A program made the position numbers and the translations under genes. Shown here one piece after another: positions 10,203 through 17,738 of a DNA stretch of 64,000 nt (position 1 is its first letter; each line of letters opens with the position of its first letter). The notes beneath the pieces were generated by a model. The model was not told where the DNA came from, did not search any database, and was given only the letters and a program-made list of their open reading frames with translations. This stretch comes from a virus (Duplodnaviria; Heunggongvirae; Uroviricota; Caudoviricetes), in IMG/VR virus record IMGVR_UViG_2909262264_000005. One strand, written 5' to 3'.

Positions 10203-10895
10203 ATGACATTTTCAGAACGACTTGATTTAGCTATGCGCAACGCAAAATTTACGCAAGGTAGGCTGGCCAAAGAAGTGGGTATGGCTCAGTCCAGTGTCAA
10301 TCAACTACTTAACAAAGCCAACGGTTCCAGAAAAACAGTCGAAATAGCAAAAGTTTTGGGCGTTAACCCGGAATGGCTTGCATCGGGTGTTGGCCCAATG
10401 GAAATCGTGACCTCTGCAGACTCACACCAAATACGTAACATTTCTGAAGATTGGGTTACTGATTCGTATGTCGTGGATGTTTTAGACATCAGATATAGTT
10501 GCGGACCTGGTAGTTATAACTCTGATTTTCCTGACATTGTCAGATCTATAGCGATAGAACCAGGATACGCATCAAGAGTTTTTGGCGGCAGACCAGCATC
10601 AGCAATCAAAGCAATAAACGCCCACGGCGACAGCATGAAAGGCACAATAAACCCTGAGGACTTGGTGTTTGTTGACGTATCAGTTCGCTCATTTAATGGC
10701 GATGGTATATACGCTTTTACATACTCAGGAACATCGCACATCAAAAGGCTTCAAAAAATCAAAGACACCCTAACAGTGATCTCAGACAATCCAGCTTACA
10801 AAGATTGGGCTATCGAACAAGATGACTTCGAGCAACTTCACATTGACGGAAAAGTAATCGTAAGTTGGCCTATGACGCTACACCGTTTCGCATAA
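10203..10895 (+). CDS. CI-like prophage repressor (N-terminal HTH, C-terminal S24 LexA-type peptidase domain)
   Basis: 230 aa; HTH region QGRLAKEVGMAQSSVNQLL; C-terminal GDSM...K autocleavage-type domain (AHGDSMKGTINPEDLVFVD). Confidence 0.85.
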   Translation: MTFSERLDLAMRNAKFTQGRLAKEVGMAQSSVNQLLNKANGSRKTVEIAKVLGVNPEWLASGVGPMEIVTSADSHQIRNISEDWVTDSYVVDVLDIRYSCGPGSYNSDFPDIVRSIAIEPGYASRVFGGRPASAIKAINAHGDSMKGTINPEDLVFVDVSVRSFNGDGIYAFTYSGTSHIKRLQKIKDTLTVISDNPAYKDWAIEQDDFEQLHIDGKVIVSWPMTLHRFA

Positions 10896-10918
10896 GCGAT
10901 AATTATTTAACATCCCCG

Positions 10919-10944
10919 CCCACTCCACGAGTGGGTTTTTTTTT
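10919..10944 (+). terminator. Intrinsic terminator after cI-like gene
   Basis: CCCACT-(C)CACG-AGTGGG stem-loop followed by T9. Confidence 0.55.
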
Positions 10945-10963
10945 GAAAAAATCGACAAACCGA

Positions 10964-10992
10964 TTGACAACATGAATAGGTAAACCTATTAT
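10964..10992 (+). promoter_or_regulatory. pL-like sigma70 promoter with embedded operator palindrome
   Basis: TTGACA (10964-10969), 17-bp spacer, TATTAT (10987-10992); spacer contains inverted repeat AATAGGTAAACCTATT (10975-10990). Confidence 0.45.
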
Positions 10993-12778: not shown

Positions 12779-12954
12779 ATATTAAGAAGAATATAATTCT
12801 TCCGTTTTTTACTAACCGTTTATATGAAAAGCAACCGTGAATTAAGCAGAGTAAAACTGCTTTTAATCCTTGCCACAGTACTGACACTAACAGAAATCAT
12901 TATTCTCTTTATTGCGCTGTCAGTCAGTTAAAAATATCGGGATGCAACAAACCA

Positions 12955-13143
12955 ATGAGATTGTATTTCAGAATAGTAATTTTACTGGCAATTATCGCAT
13001 GCATTTACGGACTACTCGTCCCGTTCCTTATATCCATGAAGGATACGGTAGCAGTCATTTCCGGCTTTGCACTGGCGTTTCTGACCCCGCCCTGCATTTA
13101 TGCCATTTACAAGGGTCTTTCTTTCACTAAGGGTAAAAGATGA
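12955..13143 (+). CDS. Small membrane protein (62 aa, two predicted TM helices)
   Basis: MRLYFRIVILLAIIACIYGLLVPFLISM…AVISGFALAFLTPPCIYAIY; stop overlaps the start of the SPFH gene (ATGA). Confidence 0.45.
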   Translation: MRLYFRIVILLAIIACIYGLLVPFLISMKDTVAVISGFALAFLTPPCIYAIYKGLSFTKGKR

Positions 13144-13967
13144 AAAAGGTTATTTTTGCTTTAGCCATTGTTCTTCCGACCATTGGCCTTGTCGGTTGCG
13201 ATCGCGTTGAACCAGGTAATGTTGGCATCAAGGTAAATAAACTGGGCGACGACAAAGGCGTCGGTGAAGTGGTTGGCGTTGGCCGCTACTGGACCGGCTG
13301 GAATACTGAAGTTTACATCTTCCCGACCTTCAAACAAATGAAGACCTACGATGAACCGTTCAGTTTCCAGATGAGTGACGGTACAACCATCGGCTATCAC
13401 ATCGGCGTGGCCTACAAAGTTGACCCATCCAAAGTTACCACGGTGTTTCAGACCTACCGCAAAGGCGTGGATGACATTACCGACACCGACCTGCGTCAAA
13501 AGATCGCCGACGCACTCAATCGACTGGCCAGCAAAATGACCACCGACAAATTTATCGACGGCGGGAAGTCTGAACTACTGGATGCAGCTCTTAAAGACAT
13601 TCAGGAGGAAATGACACCCATCGGTATTCAGGTAATGAGCCTCTCATATGTGGGTAAGCCGGAGTACCCGTCAACCGTTATCGACAGCATTAATGCCAAA
13701 GTCACGGCGAACCAGAAAACACTGCAGCGCGAGCAGGAAGTTAAACAGCGCGAAGCGGAAGCCAACATGTTGCGCGCGGAAGCTGCCGGACAGGCTGATG
13801 CGATTCGCACAAAAGCCCAGGCCGAAGCCGATGCTATTCGTTTACGCGGTGAAGCTCTGCGCCAGAACCCCGGTGTTATGGAGCTGGAAGCCATCAATAA
13901 ATGGAACGGCACACTGCCGCAATACATGACCAGCGGTGCAAATACACCATTTATCCAGGTTAAATAA
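13140..13967 (+). CDS. SPFH/band-7 (prohibitin/flotillin-like) domain lipoprotein
   Basis: Lipoprotein signal MKKVIFALAIVLPTIGLVGC; SPFH core (NVGIKVNKLG…) and Ala/Glu-rich coiled-coil C-terminus (EAEANMLRAEAAGQADAIRTKAQAEADAIR). Confidence 0.7.
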   Translation: MKKVIFALAIVLPTIGLVGCDRVEPGNVGIKVNKLGDDKGVGEVVGVGRYWTGWNTEVYIFPTFKQMKTYDEPFSFQMSDGTTIGYHIGVAYKVDPSKVTTVFQTYRKGVDDITDTDLRQKIADALNRLASKMTTDKFIDGGKSELLDAALKDIQEEMTPIGIQVMSLSYVGKPEYPSTVIDSINAKVTANQKTLQREQEVKQREAEANMLRAEAAGQADAIRTKAQAEADAIRLRGEALRQNPGVMELEAINKWNGTLPQYMTSGANTPFIQVK

Positions 13968-14007
13968 CTTATATGCCCGGCAGGCCGCCGGGCTAAGGGA
14001 AATGCAG

Positions 14008-14799: not shown

Positions 14800-15009
14800 G
14801 TGGGGCTGGATTGCGTACCTATATCAACCTACTGCCGCAACGCAGGAGAAACGGTTGATGCCGTTAACAAACGGATACAAAGAGGAATATGGAAAGAAGG
14901 GGTACATGTATTAAAAGTCGACGGAGTTAAAGAACGTTGGGTCGACTTAATGGAGATTACAAAATGGGCAAGAAAGAACAAGGATCATTATCTCTCCCTA
15001 GAGGAGTAA
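14800..15009 (+). CDS. xis: Excisionase (Xis-like)
   Basis: 69 aa from a GTG; …LDCVPISTYCRNAGETVDAVNKRIQRG.WKEGVHVLKV.GVKERWVDL… paralog of 62114-62320; 3' end overlaps the integrase start. Confidence 0.65.
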   Translation: MGLDCVPISTYCRNAGETVDAVNKRIQRGIWKEGVHVLKVDGVKERWVDLMEITKWARKNKDHYLSLEE

Positions 15010-16136
15010 CTATTCGGCAGCATAAAACTGGTAGCACTCTGGTTATCACTTTTACATATAAAGGGGTTCTGTGTCGGGAGCCCCTCTCCAGAATGGAAGT
15101 AAACGCGCGCGGTGTGAAGTACGCAGAACGTCTGCTGGGAGAAATAAAAAATCAGATTATCGATGGTACCTTCGAATATGCAAAATACTTCCCCAACTCC
15201 CAAAAGCTGGAGTTGTTCGGGGGAGTGAAAAAAAACAAAAATATAAAATCTTATCTGGATGAATACCTGATTATCTGCCAGAACCGTAACCTGTCACCAT
15301 CGACAATTAGAGGTTATGAAAAATGCTTGTCGGCGCTGTCAGCATTGCATAAATTTCATGTATCAGAACTGACACCTGCTGTACTAAAAAACTGGATCGC
15401 CAGCAGAAAAACAAAACTGAAAACGATCCGCAATAATCTTTCGTTTCTGCGCAGCGCCATAGATGAAGCGGTGACCGATGGTTTGTTAACAATAAATCCT
15501 GTCACGCTAGTCAGCGCCAGCCGGTATCACGTATTGGACAACACACCAGGCAGTGGTGATTACGAGGTCGATCCCTTTACACCAGCGGAGACGGCAGCAA
15601 TCTATGACGCCTGTCATTACCCGGAATGGCGAAATCTGTTTCGCTTTGCCTTTAATACCGGACTGCGTAGCTCAGAATTGTGCGCGTTGCGCTGGACGGA
15701 TATAGACTTCATCGGCAACACCGCGCATGTTCAAACTGCAAGCGTAGTCGGGGTAATCAAAAGCACCAAAACAAAAGCCGGCACCCGCAAAGTGCAACTG
15801 AACAGCGAAGCGCTGGCGGCTCTTCAGGCACAAAAGCCCTACACGGCGCTAAAGAGCGACTTCATATTCAGCGATCCGAAAACTCGCGCTCCTTGGGCAA
15901 ACGCAGATGCGATCCGAAAAAAAGCCTGGGTACCAACCCTTAAAAAAGCTGGTGTACGCTATCGCAATCCGTACCAGACACGCCACACGTTCGCCACACG
16001 GCACATTAGCCAGGGCGTTAACCTGTTCTGGCTTGCTGGTCAGATGGGACATAAAGGACCGGAAATGCTGTTCAGACATTACGGCTCTTACCTTGCAGAA
16101 TACGATGGAAAAACGGCGATTTCTGCAGCCCCGTAA
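14964..16136 (+). CDS. int: Tyrosine integrase (phage integrase family)
   Basis: 390 aa; C-terminal catalytic region …RNPYQTRHTFATRHISQGVNLFWLAGQMGHKGPEMLFRHYGSYL; adjacent to att core. Confidence 0.9.
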   Translation: MGKKEQGSLSLPRGVTIRQHKTGSTLVITFTYKGVLCREPLSRMEVNARGVKYAERLLGEIKNQIIDGTFEYAKYFPNSQKLELFGGVKKNKNIKSYLDEYLIICQNRNLSPSTIRGYEKCLSALSALHKFHVSELTPAVLKNWIASRKTKLKTIRNNLSFLRSAIDEAVTDGLLTINPVTLVSASRYHVLDNTPGSGDYEVDPFTPAETAAIYDACHYPEWRNLFRFAFNTGLRSSELCALRWTDIDFIGNTAHVQTASVVGVIKSTKTKAGTRKVQLNSEALAALQAQKPYTALKSDFIFSDPKTRAPWANADAIRKKAWVPTLKKAGVRYRNPYQTRHTFATRHISQGVNLFWLAGQMGHKGPEMLFRHYGSYLAEYDGKTAISAAP

Positions 16137-16453: not shown

Positions 16454-16529
16454 CCCTTAAGTTCCTAGCCGCTTATCTATAACTATGGAAAAATGTTAAC
16501 CCTGACTGTATGTTAACAAAGGGATGTAT

Positions 16530-17738
16530 ATGTCGGTTTTTCATAACTGGCTGCTTGATATCGCAAGCGGGAATTACTTTATCTACATCAAACGCCTTTC
16601 TGCAAACGACACAGGCGCAACAGGTGGCCATCAGGTCGGACTTTATATCCCCTCAAATATCGTTGAAAAGCTTTTTCCATCTATCAATCATACTCGCGAA
16701 CTGAACCCTTCAGTCTTCCTTACTGCGCATGTATCATCCCATGATTGCCCTGATACCCAAGCACGCGCAATTTATTACAACAACCGTTATTTTGGTAAGA
16801 CCCGAAACGAAAAAAGAATTACGCGCTGGGGGAGAGGAAGTCCATTACAGAACCCTGAAAATACAGGAGCCCTCACAATTCTTGCTTTCAGGTTAAACGA
16901 ACAGAACACTGACTGTTCCGAGGTAGATATATGGGTCTGCGTCAATCCCGATGAAGAGGATATCATCGAGTCTGCTATTGGCGAAATCATACCTGGAACC
17001 CTAATTTCCGGCCCTGCCGGACAAATTTTGGGCGGATTGTCTCTTCAGCAAACTCCAGTAAATCATAAATATGTTATTCCTGAAGACTGGAAGAAGCGTT
17101 TTCCTTCTGGAAACGAAATTATTCAATATGCTGCTGGCCATTATGCTAAAAACTCCAAGGATCCAGATGAGCAACTGATTGACCGTCGGCGTGTCGAGTA
17201 TGATATTTTTCTACTCGTCGAGGAATTACATGTTATTGATATTATTAAGAAAGGATTCGATTCTGTAGATGAGTTTATTGCATTAGCCAACTCTGTCAGT
17301 AATCGACGTAAATCAAGGGCAGGCAAATCACTTGAACTTCACCTAGAGAAGCTTTTTATCGAGCACGGACTACGGCATTTCTCCACTCAGGCAGTTACTG
17401 AAGGTAATAAAAAACCAGATTTCCTGTTTCCTTCAGCAGAGGCATATCATAACGTTGAATTTCCTGTAGAAAACTTACGTATGCTGGCAGTAAAGACCAC
17501 CTGCAAAGATCGCTGGCGTCAGATACTGAATGAAGCAGATAAAATCCATCAGGTACATTTATTTACACTGCAAGAAGGTGTTTCTTCAGCACAATACCGA
17601 GAAATGAAAGATGCGGGTGTCAGACTCGTTGTACCATCAACTTTACATAAAAAATACCCAGAAGCAGTTAGAGAAGAATTAATAACGCTCGGAGCATTCA
17701 TTACTGAGCTGATAGAGCTTTACGCTGAACTATCATAG
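16530..17738 (+). CDS. Type II restriction endonuclease, EcoRII family
   Basis: Start MSVFHNWLLDIASGNYFIYIKRLSANDTGATGGHQVGLYIPS matches my recollection of the EcoRII N-terminus; ~402 aa; convergent with a C5-cytosine methyltransferase. Confidence 0.75.
   Translation: MSVFHNWLLDIASGNYFIYIKRLSANDTGATGGHQVGLYIPSNIVEKLFPSINHTRELNPSVFLTAHVSSHDCPDTQARAIYYNNRYFGKTRNEKRITRWGRGSPLQNPENTGALTILAFRLNEQNTDCSEVDIWVCVNPDEEDIIESAIGEIIPGTLISGPAGQILGGLSLQQTPVNHKYVIPEDWKKRFPSGNEIIQYAAGHYAKNSKDPDEQLIDRRRVEYDIFLLVEELHVIDIIKKGFDSVDEFIALANSVSNRRKSRAGKSLELHLEKLFIEHGLRHFSTQAVTEGNKKPDFLFPSAEAYHNVEFPVENLRMLAVKTTCKDRWRQILNEADKIHQVHLFTLQEGVSSAQYREMKDAGVRLVVPSTLHKKYPEAVREELITLGAFITELIELYAELS

What the first reader, a model, noticed from the sequence alone, without database searches (positions are those of the whole stretch)
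12955..13967. Small two-helix membrane protein translationally coupled to an SPFH/band-7 lipoprotein in the early-left operon of prophage A
A 62-aa ORF with two hydrophobic helices ends in ATGA overlapping the start of a 275-aa lipoprotein with an SPFH core and Ala/Glu-rich coiled-coil tail. The pair sits in the pL-driven accessory region where lambdoid phages keep exclusion and host-modulation genes. Cellular SPFH proteins are usually paired with larger NfeD-type partners; here the partner is a minimal membrane peptide. A membrane-microdomain scaffold in this position suggests a superinfection-exclusion or envelope-remodelling function.
Basis: partly seen in the sequence, partly recalled or inferred. 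Interest (0 to 1): 0.5.

Follow-up and report, generated by a model that had tools for sequence, protein, structure and literature searches.

The report
Phage SPFH cage with hairpin partner
A tiny two-helix membrane protein and a lipid-anchored SPFH (band-7) protein form a conserved two-gene module carried among the early genes of hundreds of unrelated phages, including coliphage N4; it probably builds a cage on the periplasmic face of the inner membrane, but what the phage gains from it is untested.

Summary
A 62-aa ORF (12955-13143) ends in ATGA on the start of a 275-aa Band_7/SPFH lipoprotein (13140-13967), in the early-left arm of a phiP27-like prophage.

Both genes are real. dN/dS is 0.12-0.28 for the small ORF and 0.03-0.06 for SPFH.

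The pair is not a lambdoid speciality:
- It occurs in P2-like P88, P1-like and SSU5-like phage-plasmids, virulent N4 (gp19/gp20, 62% identity), PVP-SE1 and a crAss-like phage.
- 412 phage records encode an SPFH relative.
- In many metagenomic relatives the two proteins are fused, with the lipobox cysteine kept.
- Dyella species carry the pair in a conserved cellular locus.

The partner is an N-in/C-in hairpin with a conserved periplasmic turn. The SPFH protein has Asp at +2 (inner-membrane retention). Its model matches full-length HflC, HflK, prohibitin and erlin, which are cage-forming SPFH proteins.

Best reading: an equimolar, periplasm-facing SPFH cage module, probably expressed early in lytic growth and acting on a conserved inner-membrane host function. 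FtsH-type proteolysis is my leading guess at about 0.25-0.3.

Superinfection exclusion is not excluded but has no specific support. There are no PADLOC hits, and I found no functional literature.

Verdict: a new variant of a known kind, of moderate interest.

The parts
12955..13143 (+). 62-aa partner protein: a two-TM helical hairpin, N-in/C-in. It has a conserved turn motif P-x-L-I-S-x-x-D/S-T (here VPFLISMKDT) and a basic C-tail.
   Evidence: hydropathy; PHROG 1130, 1.5e-23; 36 homologue clusters of 62-65 aa; present in 95/95 loci; dN/dS 0.12-0.28; K+R: N-tail 41, C-tail 85, turn 9; fused homologues
13129..13143 (+). Coupling junction: Shine-Dalgarno AAGGG (13129-13133) inside the end of the small ORF, then the ATGA stop/start overlap (13140-13143).
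   Evidence: a 4-nt overlap is kept in most related loci
13140..13967 (+). 275-aa SPFH/Band_7 lipoprotein
   Evidence: PF01145, 1.8e-30; PHROG 200; AF2 pLDDT 85; Foldseek: HflC 4.9e-14, PHB2, HflK, erlin
13140..13202 (+). Lipoprotein signal peptide MKKVIFALAIVLPTIGLVGC with lipobox LVGC (Cys20 at 13197-13199), followed by Asp at +2 (13200-13202), the inner-membrane retention signal.
   Evidence: 99 of 103 enterobacterial homologues with a lipobox have Asp at +2; Cys invariant or nearly invariant
13203..13763 (+). SPFH1 and SPFH2 domains (aa 22-208). The membrane-proximal N-terminal part (aa 23-90) holds most of the invariant residues.
13671..13865 (+). Long Ala/Glu/Gln-rich helix (aa 178-242), the counterpart of the coiled-coil wall of SPFH cages.
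   Evidence: H178-242, pLDDT about 90; aligned with full-length HflK/C, prohibitin and erlin chains
13899..13919 (+). Conserved C-terminal motif KWNGTLP (aa 254-260; W255 and G257 invariant), a candidate lid or inter-subunit element.
   Evidence: low pLDDT in the monomer model
10918..10992 (+). Context: a terminator-like hairpin with a T-run (10918-10936) after the cI-like gene, then a strong sigma-70-like promoter TTGACA-17-TATTAT (10964-10992). This is the putative pL driving the operon that contains the pair.
   Evidence: no + strand terminator-like or promoter-like site between it and the pair
13975..13993 (+). GC-rich hairpin GCCCGGC-AGGCC-GCCGGGC directly after the SPFH stop, with no T-run. 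It may mark the cassette boundary or stabilise the RNA.
   Evidence: read from the sequence; not called as a terminator

Best explanation
The two genes encode the two subunits of one membrane machine: a periplasm-facing SPFH cage on the inner membrane.

Shown:
- The 275-aa protein is an SPFH protein with a lipoprotein signal and Asp at +2.
- The 62-aa protein is an N-in/C-in hairpin whose only conserved polar element is its 5-residue periplasmic turn.
- The two genes are translationally coupled or fused across very distant phages.
- The module sits in early or repressor-controlled operons of temperate phages and in the early/middle region of virulent N4.

Inferred:
- The lipid-anchored SPFH subunits assemble into an HflK/C-, prohibitin- or erlin-like ring with a coiled-coil wall and a C-terminal lid.
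- The hairpin is made in equimolar amounts. It supplies the transmembrane palisade, or docking element, that the lipoprotein lacks, so that a patch of inner membrane is fenced off.
- In fused relatives, signal peptidase II would cut at the conserved lipobox and yield the same two products.
- The phage makes the cage early in lytic development to take over a conserved inner-membrane host function.

My leading candidate for that function is sequestration or modulation of FtsH-type membrane proteolysis, as HflK/C does. That would stabilise phage or host FtsH substrates. I put this last step at only about 0.25-0.3. The architecture itself I put at about 0.7.
For: Real, coupled genes.

The partner travels with SPFH across unrelated elements:
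- P88 gp11/gp12.
- RCS47, where the pair replaces P1 tciABC inside the C1-controlled ban operon.
- An SSU5-like phage-plasmid.
- N4 gp19/gp20, 61.6% identity.
- PVP-SE1 gp116/gp118 and crAss-like PhiCrAssBcn1.
- A Cohaesibacter prophage.
- At least 58 of 85 further loci.

Fusions: 19 representatives of 322-392 aa read hairpin, basic linker, lipobox signal, SPFH. The Cys is invariant, and several have no Met before the signal segment. Their contigs look like phage.

Topology:
- Positive-inside counts place both tails in the cytoplasm. This is the only arrangement compatible with the fusions.
- Asp at +2 in 99 of 103 homologues.
- Lineages that replaced the Cys by Tyr, Trp or Phe keep the partner gene, so the anchor type is interchangeable. 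I take this as fitting an inner-membrane location rather than an outer-membrane one.

Conserved host target:
- SPFH dN/dS is 0.03-0.06.
- Dyella species keep the pair in cellular synteny between BlaR1/BlaI-like genes and nrdAB.
- The best structural matches are, from established knowledge of those families, extracytoplasmic cages tied to membrane-protein degradation.
Against: - No oligomer, localisation or expression data exist. The cage is inferred from a monomer model.
- Some relatives lack the motif-bearing partner (Clew-1, Karma), so SPFH may work without it.
- Between the window and P88 the SPFH protein is 93% identical but the partner only 23%. That is odd for a tight, specific interface. 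It may mean the partner co-adapts with the signal peptide rather than with the mature protein.
- The FtsH link rests on analogy only. HflK/HflC models are far below threshold, and sequence similarity to solved SPFH proteins is weak (E about 1e-6).
- The module also occurs in an archaeal virus, and as far as I know archaea lack FtsH (not checked here).
Confidence: 0.6

Rival explanations
1. Superinfection exclusion. The inner-membrane cage blocks genome entry of later-arriving phages, for example by sequestering an inner-membrane entry factor or by obstructing the periplasmic face. This would resemble the early exclusion genes of virulent phages.
For: Envelope location facing the periplasm. Early-operon position in temperate phages and presence in virulent phages, as for T4 imm and sp (established knowledge). 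In P1-like elements the pair occupies the slot of tciABC, whose record annotates a TerB-like 'tellurite or colicin resistance' function.
Against: No hit to any PADLOC model at E<=1 or to known exclusion families in Pfam or PHROGs. No promoter of its own for prophage expression. Very strong purifying selection, and 62% identity between unrelated phages N4 and phiP27. Exclusion proteins that recognise rival phages are, from my general knowledge, usually fast-evolving and lineage-specific. The conserved cellular copy in Dyella is hard to explain by exclusion. No paper in the library combines SPFH with anti-phage or defence terms, and the single paper with both SPFH and 'superinfection exclusion' only lists two separate gene annotations.
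Confidence: 0.18
2. Membrane-integrity or lysis-timing device. The cage mechanically or energetically stabilises the inner membrane during infection. It would delay premature holin triggering or blunt host abortive-infection effectors that depolarise the membrane. No specific protein would be sequestered.
For: SPFH and flotillin proteins are generally linked to membrane stress tolerance (abstracts of PMC10434171 and PMC8581546, listed). The module occurs in very different hosts, which fits a lipid-level rather than a protein-specific action. The Dyella copy lies next to a BlaR1/BlaI-type envelope-signal sensor pair. N4 is known for delayed lysis (own knowledge, not tested).
Against: The module is not in or near the lysis cassette in any phage examined. 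No experimental link. The strictly conserved periplasmic turn and SPFH1 residues suggest specific protein contacts.
Confidence: 0.15
3. Lysogenic-conversion surface or virulence lipoprotein. The SPFH lipoprotein is exported to the outer membrane or to vesicles and acts on the animal host, as reported for the prophage-encoded HflK/C-like protein PM0222 of Pasteurella multocida.
For: PMC9872710 reports a prophage-island SPFH protein of 25-35 kDa found in outer-membrane vesicles. It stimulates TLR1/2, and its deletion attenuates virulence in mice.
Against: Asp at +2 in 99 of 103 enterobacterial homologues, and lineages that swap the lipobox Cys for an aromatic residue, point to the inner membrane. 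The module is common in virulent phages and environmental phages. It lies in a repressor-controlled operon with no promoter of its own.
Confidence: 0.04
4. The small ORF is not a gene. It would be only the leader region or ribosome-loading site of the SPFH gene.
For: It is unannotated in the phiP27 record. There is only a weak Shine-Dalgarno before its ATG.
Against: dN/dS 0.12-0.28 with dS up to 1.5. The reading frame and length are kept at 64-71% identity in Klebsiella, Salmonella and Enterobacter. Homologues occur in Alphaproteobacteria, Bacteroidota and Leptospira, and natural in-frame fusions exist. PGAP annotates it.
Confidence: 0.02

Closest known systems
Coliphage N4 gp19 + gp20 (uncharacterised), and PHROG 1130 + PHROG 200
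   Same: Same family and same arrangement. N4 has a 68-aa 2-TM hairpin with the P-x-M-V-S-A-x-D-S turn, overlapping by 8 nt a 278-aa SPFH lipoprotein that is 61.6% identical to the window protein. The PHROG profiles match at 1.5e-23 and 9e-114.
   Different: N4 is virulent and unrelated to phiP27-like phages. Its +2 residue is Tyr rather than Asp. I found no published function for gp19/gp20.
HflK/HflC cage around FtsH (E. coli; PDB 7VHP, 7VHQ, 7WI3, 9CZ2)
   Same: Best or near-best structural match over the full length: SPFH1/2, long helix and C-terminal region. SPFH domains on the periplasmic face of the inner membrane. 'hfl' has a known link to phage lysis-lysogeny (established knowledge; PMC3053222, PMC1838920).
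   Different: Only 15-19% identity. The HflK/HflC equivalog models fail. There is one SPFH gene, not two paralogues. The anchor is a lipid, not an N-terminal TM helix. A separate hairpin subunit is present. No evidence of FtsH binding.
Prohibitin PHB1/2 and erlin1/2 cages
   Different: Eukaryotic, hetero-oligomeric and TM-anchored, with no small partner. Sequence similarity is marginal (E 0.003-0.01).
SPFH-NfeD operons (QmcA-YbbJ, PDB 8Z5G; stomatin PH1511-PH1510)
   Same: An SPFH scaffold encoded next to, and co-assembling with, a membrane partner. QmcA is the best sequence-level PDB match (3e-6).
   Different: The partner has no NfeD/OB-fold domain (no Pfam hit) and only 62 aa. From established knowledge, QmcA faces the cytoplasm, whereas this protein faces the periplasm.
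Lambda CIII (FtsH inhibitor in the pL operon)
   Same: Position in the early-left operon. It would be a functional analogue if the cage acts on FtsH (PMC1838920 abstract).
   Different: No sequence or structural relation. CIII is a 54-aa amphipathic peptide acting from the cytoplasmic side (established knowledge).
Pasteurella multocida PM0222 (prophage-encoded HflK/C-like protein)
   Same: Prophage-borne SPFH protein of similar size (PMC9872710).
   Different: Reported in vesicles as a TLR1/2 agonist. Homology to this family is untested, and no partner is described.

Membership tests
SPFH / Band 7 superfamily | Match to the SPFH domain model above the curated threshold | tested here: met
   PF01145, 106.8 bits against a cut-off of 23.6, aa 22-208
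SPFH / Band 7 superfamily | SPFH alpha/beta fold followed by a long coiled-coil helix and a C-terminal oligomerisation region | tested here: met
   AF2 model pLDDT 85 with helix 178-242. Full-length matches to HflC, HflK, PHB and erlin. This is a predicted structure only.
SPFH / Band 7 superfamily | Assembly into a large ring or cage on a membrane | not testable with these tools
   Only monomer predictions were possible. Needs native PAGE or cryo-EM.
HflK/HflC (FtsH modulators) | Scores above the equivalog thresholds TIGR01933 (HflK) and TIGR01932 (HflC) | tested here: not met
   23.4 and 24.4 bits against cut-offs of 159.4 and 134.4
HflK/HflC (FtsH modulators) | Two paralogous SPFH subunits, each with an N-terminal TM anchor | tested here: not met
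   One SPFH gene, with a lipobox anchor instead of a TM helix, and a non-SPFH hairpin partner
HflK/HflC (FtsH modulators) | Physical complex with FtsH | not testable with these tools
   No interaction data. Analogy only.
SPFH-NfeD operon pairs | Partner protein carries the NfeD C-terminal OB-fold domain | tested here: not met
   The 62-aa partner has no Pfam hit at E<=0.01. It is too short to hold an OB fold.
Bacterial lipoproteins (Lgt/LspA substrates) | N-terminal signal peptide ending in a lipobox [LVI][ASTVI][GAS]C | tested here: met
   MKKVIFALAIVLPTIGLVGC. The Cys is nearly invariant in 129 homologues and invariant in 19 fusions.
Bacterial lipoproteins (Lgt/LspA substrates) | Inner-membrane retention signal (Asp at +2 in Enterobacteriaceae) | tested here: met
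   C-D-R in the window. Asp at +2 in 99 of 103 close homologues. Actual lipidation and sorting are not testable here.
Known superinfection-exclusion or anti-phage defence systems | Homology to a described exclusion or defence protein family | tested here: not met
   No PADLOC model at E<=1 for either protein. Pfam and PHROGs give only Band_7, 'lipoprotein' and 'membrane protein'.
Known superinfection-exclusion or anti-phage defence systems | Protection of the expressing cell against phage | not testable with these tools
   Needs plaque and DNA-entry assays.
Phage 'moron' (independently transcribed lysogenic-conversion cassette) | Own promoter and terminator flanking the cassette | tested here: not met
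   No + strand promoter-like site between 10992 and 13140. The hairpin after the stop lacks a T-run. This is a consensus scan only, so it is weak evidence.
Hairpin + SPFH-lipoprotein module (the family defined here; PHROG 1130 + PHROG 200) | 2-TM partner with the P-x-L-I-S-[AS]-x-[ST] turn, placed immediately upstream of, overlapping or fused to an SPFH protein that has a lipobox and a C-terminal KW[ND]G-x-LP motif | tested here: met

The most novel reading that the evidence does not exclude
The hairpin plus lipid-anchored SPFH pair is a previously undescribed two-component class of SPFH cage. It is made as one polypeptide and split at an internal lipobox in some lineages. Virulent and temperate phages of many bacterial phyla (N4-like, rV5-like, crAss-like, Lak) spread it as a general early 'inner-membrane takeover' device. 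One example would be caging FtsH or another universal inner-membrane machine, which would make it a structural counterpart of lambda CIII that works from the periplasmic side.
Probability: 0.25. Interest if true: 0.75.

Novelty: new variant of a known kind. Interest (0 to 1): 0.55.

Why it matters
SPFH cages (HflK/C, prohibitin, erlin, stomatin, flotillin) have recently been shown to be closed domes that fence off membrane patches. What they enclose, and why, is still being worked out.

This family has several useful properties:
- It is phage-borne, compact and genetically dispensable in many contexts.
- It has an obligatory 60-aa partner, natural fusions, and both lipid-anchored and TM-anchored variants.
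- It is present in the model phage N4 and in about 13% of complete E. coli genomes.

That makes it a tractable system for asking what an SPFH cage does.

If phages use it to control FtsH or another inner-membrane machine, that would explain why more than 400 sequenced phages carry a protein that is currently annotated as 'lipoprotein', 'serine protease' or even 'transposase'. It would also correct the habit of reading the gene as a marker of a temperate lifestyle (PMC8540360).

Tried and rejected
- PADLOC scan of both proteins and three neighbours: no hits.
- NCBIfam: only sub-threshold HflK/HflC/FloT matches.
- Literature searches (SPFH with prophage, lipoprotein, superinfection exclusion, anti-phage, NfeD or defence terms; N4 gp19/gp20; phiP27): no functional study of this family. 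Two SPFH survey papers do not mention phages or lipoproteins.
- The first scan of viral contigs returned only near-identical loci. Diversity came from the representative search and a profile search instead.
- Vi01-like phages: the PhiSH19 SPFH lipoprotein next to an annotated 'superinfection exclusion protein' looked promising. It is not this family (blastp matches only the signal peptide). The neighbour is a soluble acidic protein, and there is no hairpin gene.
- Predicted-structure coordinates are not exposed, so hairpin-SPFH contacts in the fused model could not be measured.
- I considered whether the 35-aa ORF upstream (12824-12931) is a third component. It is conserved only within phiP27-like loci and absent from the other contexts.
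Full report
**1. The observation.**
The window holds a 62-aa ORF at 12955-13143 (+). Its TGA stop overlaps the ATG of a 275-aa ORF at 13140-13967 (+), giving ATGA. An AAGGG Shine-Dalgarno lies 6 nt before that ATG, inside the end of the small ORF.

The small protein has two hydrophobic segments. The large one starts with MKKVIFALAIVLPTIGLVGC, a lipoprotein signal with the lipobox LVGC. It matches Pfam Band_7 over aa 22-208 (E 1.8e-30) and ends in an Ala/Glu/Gln-rich stretch. PHROGs place the two proteins in families 1130 ('membrane protein') and 200 ('lipoprotein').

**2. Context in the window.**
The stretch is 95.7% identical to phage phiP27 and 93% identical to a set of Stx2-converting phages. 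The gene order is a cI-like S24 repressor (10203-10895), an HTH gene, several small genes, the pair, DUF5406, DUF4222 and int at 14937-16136.

Directly after the repressor gene lies a terminator-like hairpin (10918-10936). It is followed by a near-consensus promoter, TTGACA-17-TATTAT, at 10964-10992. No + strand promoter-like or terminator-like site lies between that promoter and the pair. 'Early-left, pL-driven' is thus a reasonable reading, although it rests on consensus scans only.

**3. Both genes are real, and they belong together.**
- In all 95 fetched loci with a complete SPFH gene, an upstream 2-TM ORF overlaps the SPFH start, usually by 4 nt.
- Against diverged relatives (dS up to 1.5-2.1), dN/dS is 0.12-0.28 for the small ORF and 0.03-0.06 for SPFH.
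- Homologues of the small protein, 62-65 aa long and 64-71% identical, occur in Klebsiella, Salmonella and Enterobacter prophages. There they always lie directly before the SPFH gene while the other neighbours vary.

**4. The pair is not a lambdoid speciality.**
The same two genes are found in:
- P2-like phage P88, as gp11 and gp12 in the early operon after cox.
- P1-like RCS47, where an unannotated hairpin ORF and gp078 replace tciA-tciB-tciC of reference P1, inside the C1-controlled ban operon.
- SSU5-like phage-plasmids.
- Plasmids more generally: 357 of 365 plasmid records with a match are non-mobilizable, and the sampled rows are mostly 90-120 kb. I read these as phage-plasmids.
- 724 of 5,426 complete E. 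coli genomes.

A tblastn search finds SPFH relatives in 412 phage records. Among them are virulent phages:
- Coliphage N4 has gp19, a 68-aa hairpin, overlapping gp20, which is 61.6% identical to the window protein. They lie just downstream of the RNAPII genes.
- PVP-SE1 has partner gp116 and lipoprotein gp118, with one small gene between them.
- The crAss-like PhiCrAssBcn1 has an unannotated hairpin ORF before its gene 71.
- N4-like, rV5-like, PaP3-like and phiCbK-like phages, Lak megaphages and a Halorubrum virus also have SPFH hits. I did not check all of these for the partner.
- Clew-1 and Karma lack the typical partner.

**5. Fusions.**
A search of 1.84 billion representative proteins gave 227 hits below 1e-30. 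Many representatives of 322-392 aa are single polypeptides built as hairpin, basic linker, signal-like segment with lipobox, then SPFH. In 19 aligned examples the lipobox Cys is invariant, and several have no Met before the signal segment, so they are true fusions. Their contigs look like phage genomes, with RtcB, D5 primase, SNF2 helicase and strings of small early genes.

Fusion, together with translational coupling, is the strongest argument that the two proteins act as one unit and in equal amounts.

**6. Topology.**
Across 24 diverse partners, Lys+Arg counts are 41 in the N-tail, 85 in the C-tail and 9 in the 5-residue turn. Both tails are therefore cytoplasmic, and the conserved turn (P-x-L-I-S-[AS]-x-[ST/D]-[ST]; here VPFLISMKDT) sits at the periplasmic surface. 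Only this orientation lets the C-tail continue into the n-region of the signal peptide, as the fusions require.

For the SPFH protein:
- The residue after the lipid-modified Cys is Asp in 99 of 103 close enterobacterial homologues. By the established '+2 rule', that is the inner-membrane retention signal.
- Populous lineages have replaced the Cys with Tyr, Trp or Phe, which would leave an uncleaved signal anchor. They still keep the partner gene.
- I read this as follows: the anchor type is interchangeable, which fits the periplasmic face of the inner membrane rather than the outer membrane.

**7. Fold.**
An AlphaFold2 model built on 129 homologues (pLDDT 85) shows SPFH1 and SPFH2, one 65-residue helix (aa 178-242) and a short helix. 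The C-terminus is unresolved. Foldseek against the PDB gives full-length matches:

| Match | Foldseek E-value |
|---|---|
| HflC | 4.9e-14 |
| prohibitin-2 | 8.5e-14 |
| HflK | 1.7e-13 |
| erlin1/2 | 3.9e-13 and weaker |

Stomatin, flotillin and QmcA follow.

The invariant residues cluster in two places: the membrane-proximal SPFH1 segment (aa 23-90) and a C-terminal motif, KW[ND]G-x-LP.

**8. A cellular copy.**
Among 80 loci from species-representative genomes, almost all keep the lipobox, and at least 58 of 85 loci examined have the motif-bearing partner, either separate or fused. In eight Dyella and related Rhodanobacteraceae genomes the pair lies in conserved synteny, between a BlaR1 (M56)/BlaI-like gene pair and nrdB-nrdA. 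That is a cellular, non-prophage locus. The module therefore works on its own in a cell.

**9. How it most likely works.**
*Shown:* the gene pair, its coupling, the fusions, the topology signals, the SPFH fold, its position in early or repressor-controlled operons, and its wide phage distribution.

*Inferred:*
- The lipid-anchored subunits form an HflK/C-like dome on the periplasmic face of the inner membrane.
- The hairpin is an equimolar membrane-embedded subunit, acting as a palisade or dock, whose conserved turn meets the conserved SPFH1 base.
- Fused precursors are cut by signal peptidase II into the same two products.

For the biological role, three observations point to a conserved host inner-membrane function rather than to rival phages:
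- The extreme conservation across unrelated phages.
- The cellular copy in Dyella.
- The best structural relatives are, from established knowledge, extracytoplasmic cages tied to membrane-protein degradation.

I favour control of FtsH-type proteolysis at about 0.25-0.3. Superinfection exclusion (0.18) and membrane stabilisation or lysis timing (0.15) remain open. Nothing I could compute separates these three.

**10. Known or new.**
The genes are annotated in databases as 'SPFH domain-containing protein', 'lipoprotein', 'putative serine protease' or 'hypothetical'. Their presence in lytic phages has been remarked on (PMC8540360) and speculatively linked to HflKC (PMC4936722).

I found no functional study and no description of the hairpin partner, the fusions or the cellular copy. 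A prophage SPFH protein of Pasteurella was reported as a vesicle-borne TLR1/2 agonist (PMC9872710), but its relation to this family is untested.

The instance in the window is an ordinary member of a common family. The family itself is a new variant of a known kind of system.

**11. Caveats.**
- All structural statements rest on monomer predictions.
- Promoter and terminator calls are consensus matches.
- Expression timing is inferred from operon position.
- The window and P88 share 93% identical SPFH proteins but only 23% identical partners, and the similarity starts just after the signal peptide. The partner may therefore be co-adapted with the signal peptide rather than with the mature protein. 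This is unexplained.

Noticed in passing
window 12824-12931 (+): Unannotated 35-aa ORF encoding a single hydrophobic helix (MKSNRELSRVKLLLILATVLTLTEIIILFIALSVS), 23 nt upstream of the hairpin gene. It is intact, with conservative changes, in 53 of 54 related phiP27-like loci. It is absent from the other phage contexts of the pair. It could be a small membrane peptide or toxin-like gene.
   Followed up: partly
P0108-P0119 and P0060/61/67/68 (homologues); L186:2297-3331: In SSU5-like phage-plasmid lineages the lipobox Cys is replaced by Tyr, Trp or Phe (for example ...MGIIGYDRVEPG). The SPFH protein would then keep an uncleaved signal anchor instead of a lipid. The 66-aa partner gene is retained.
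   Followed up: partly
L004:2731-3775 compared with L180:10234-10930: In P1-like phage RCS47 the hairpin + SPFH pair sits exactly where reference P1 carries tciA-tciB-tciC (TerB-like 'tellurite or colicin resistance' genes). That is between upl and the tRNA/ban genes of the C1-controlled ban operon, so this looks like an exchangeable accessory slot.
   Followed up: partly
window 13140-13200 compared with L003 and L004: Mosaic boundary. DNA similarity to P88 and P1-like copies begins only after the signal peptide (query position about 489-494). The mature SPFH proteins are 92-93% identical, but the hairpin proteins only 23-28%. The hairpin and the signal peptide are inherited as one unit.
   Followed up: partly
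L114:4005-10732 and seven other Dyella/Rhodanobacteraceae loci: The pair lies in a conserved chromosomal neighbourhood: BlaR1-like M56 peptidase, BlaI-like repressor, the pair, a hemerythrin-domain gene, then ribonucleotide reductase nrdB/nrdA. It appears to be a domesticated or ancestral cellular copy.
   Followed up: partly
L183:2440-2560 (Pseudomonas phage Clew-1): The annotated start of the SPFH gene (Clew-1_18) is too far downstream. The reading frame continues upstream through a signal peptide with the lipobox ITAGC. This phage has a 1-TM upstream protein instead of the hairpin partner.
   Followed up: no
L184:2290-2490 (PhiCrAssBcn1): Unannotated ORF of about 65 aa with two TM helices (…SFEMISQANT…), directly upstream of the SPFH gene 71 of a crAss-like phage. 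It resembles the hairpin partner but lacks the conserved Pro.
   Followed up: no
window 13975-13993: Perfect 7-bp GC hairpin (GCCCGGC AGGCC GCCGGGC) immediately after the SPFH stop, with no T-run. The Shine-Dalgarno and start of the DUF5406 gene follow.
   Followed up: no
window 14937-16136 and 16524-17738: Two tyrosine-recombinase or integrase genes lie in tandem at the prophage end. The second is annotated 'integrase domain-containing protein' in the near-identical E. coli record. This may be the edge of a second integrated element.
   Followed up: no
L188 (Salmonella phage PhiSH19 74,140-75,457): Vi01-like phages carry a different SPFH lipoprotein (lipobox LLSGC) that is not detectably related beyond the signal peptide and has no hairpin partner. 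The neighbouring 'superinfection exclusion protein' is a soluble acidic protein without TM segments.
   Followed up: yes
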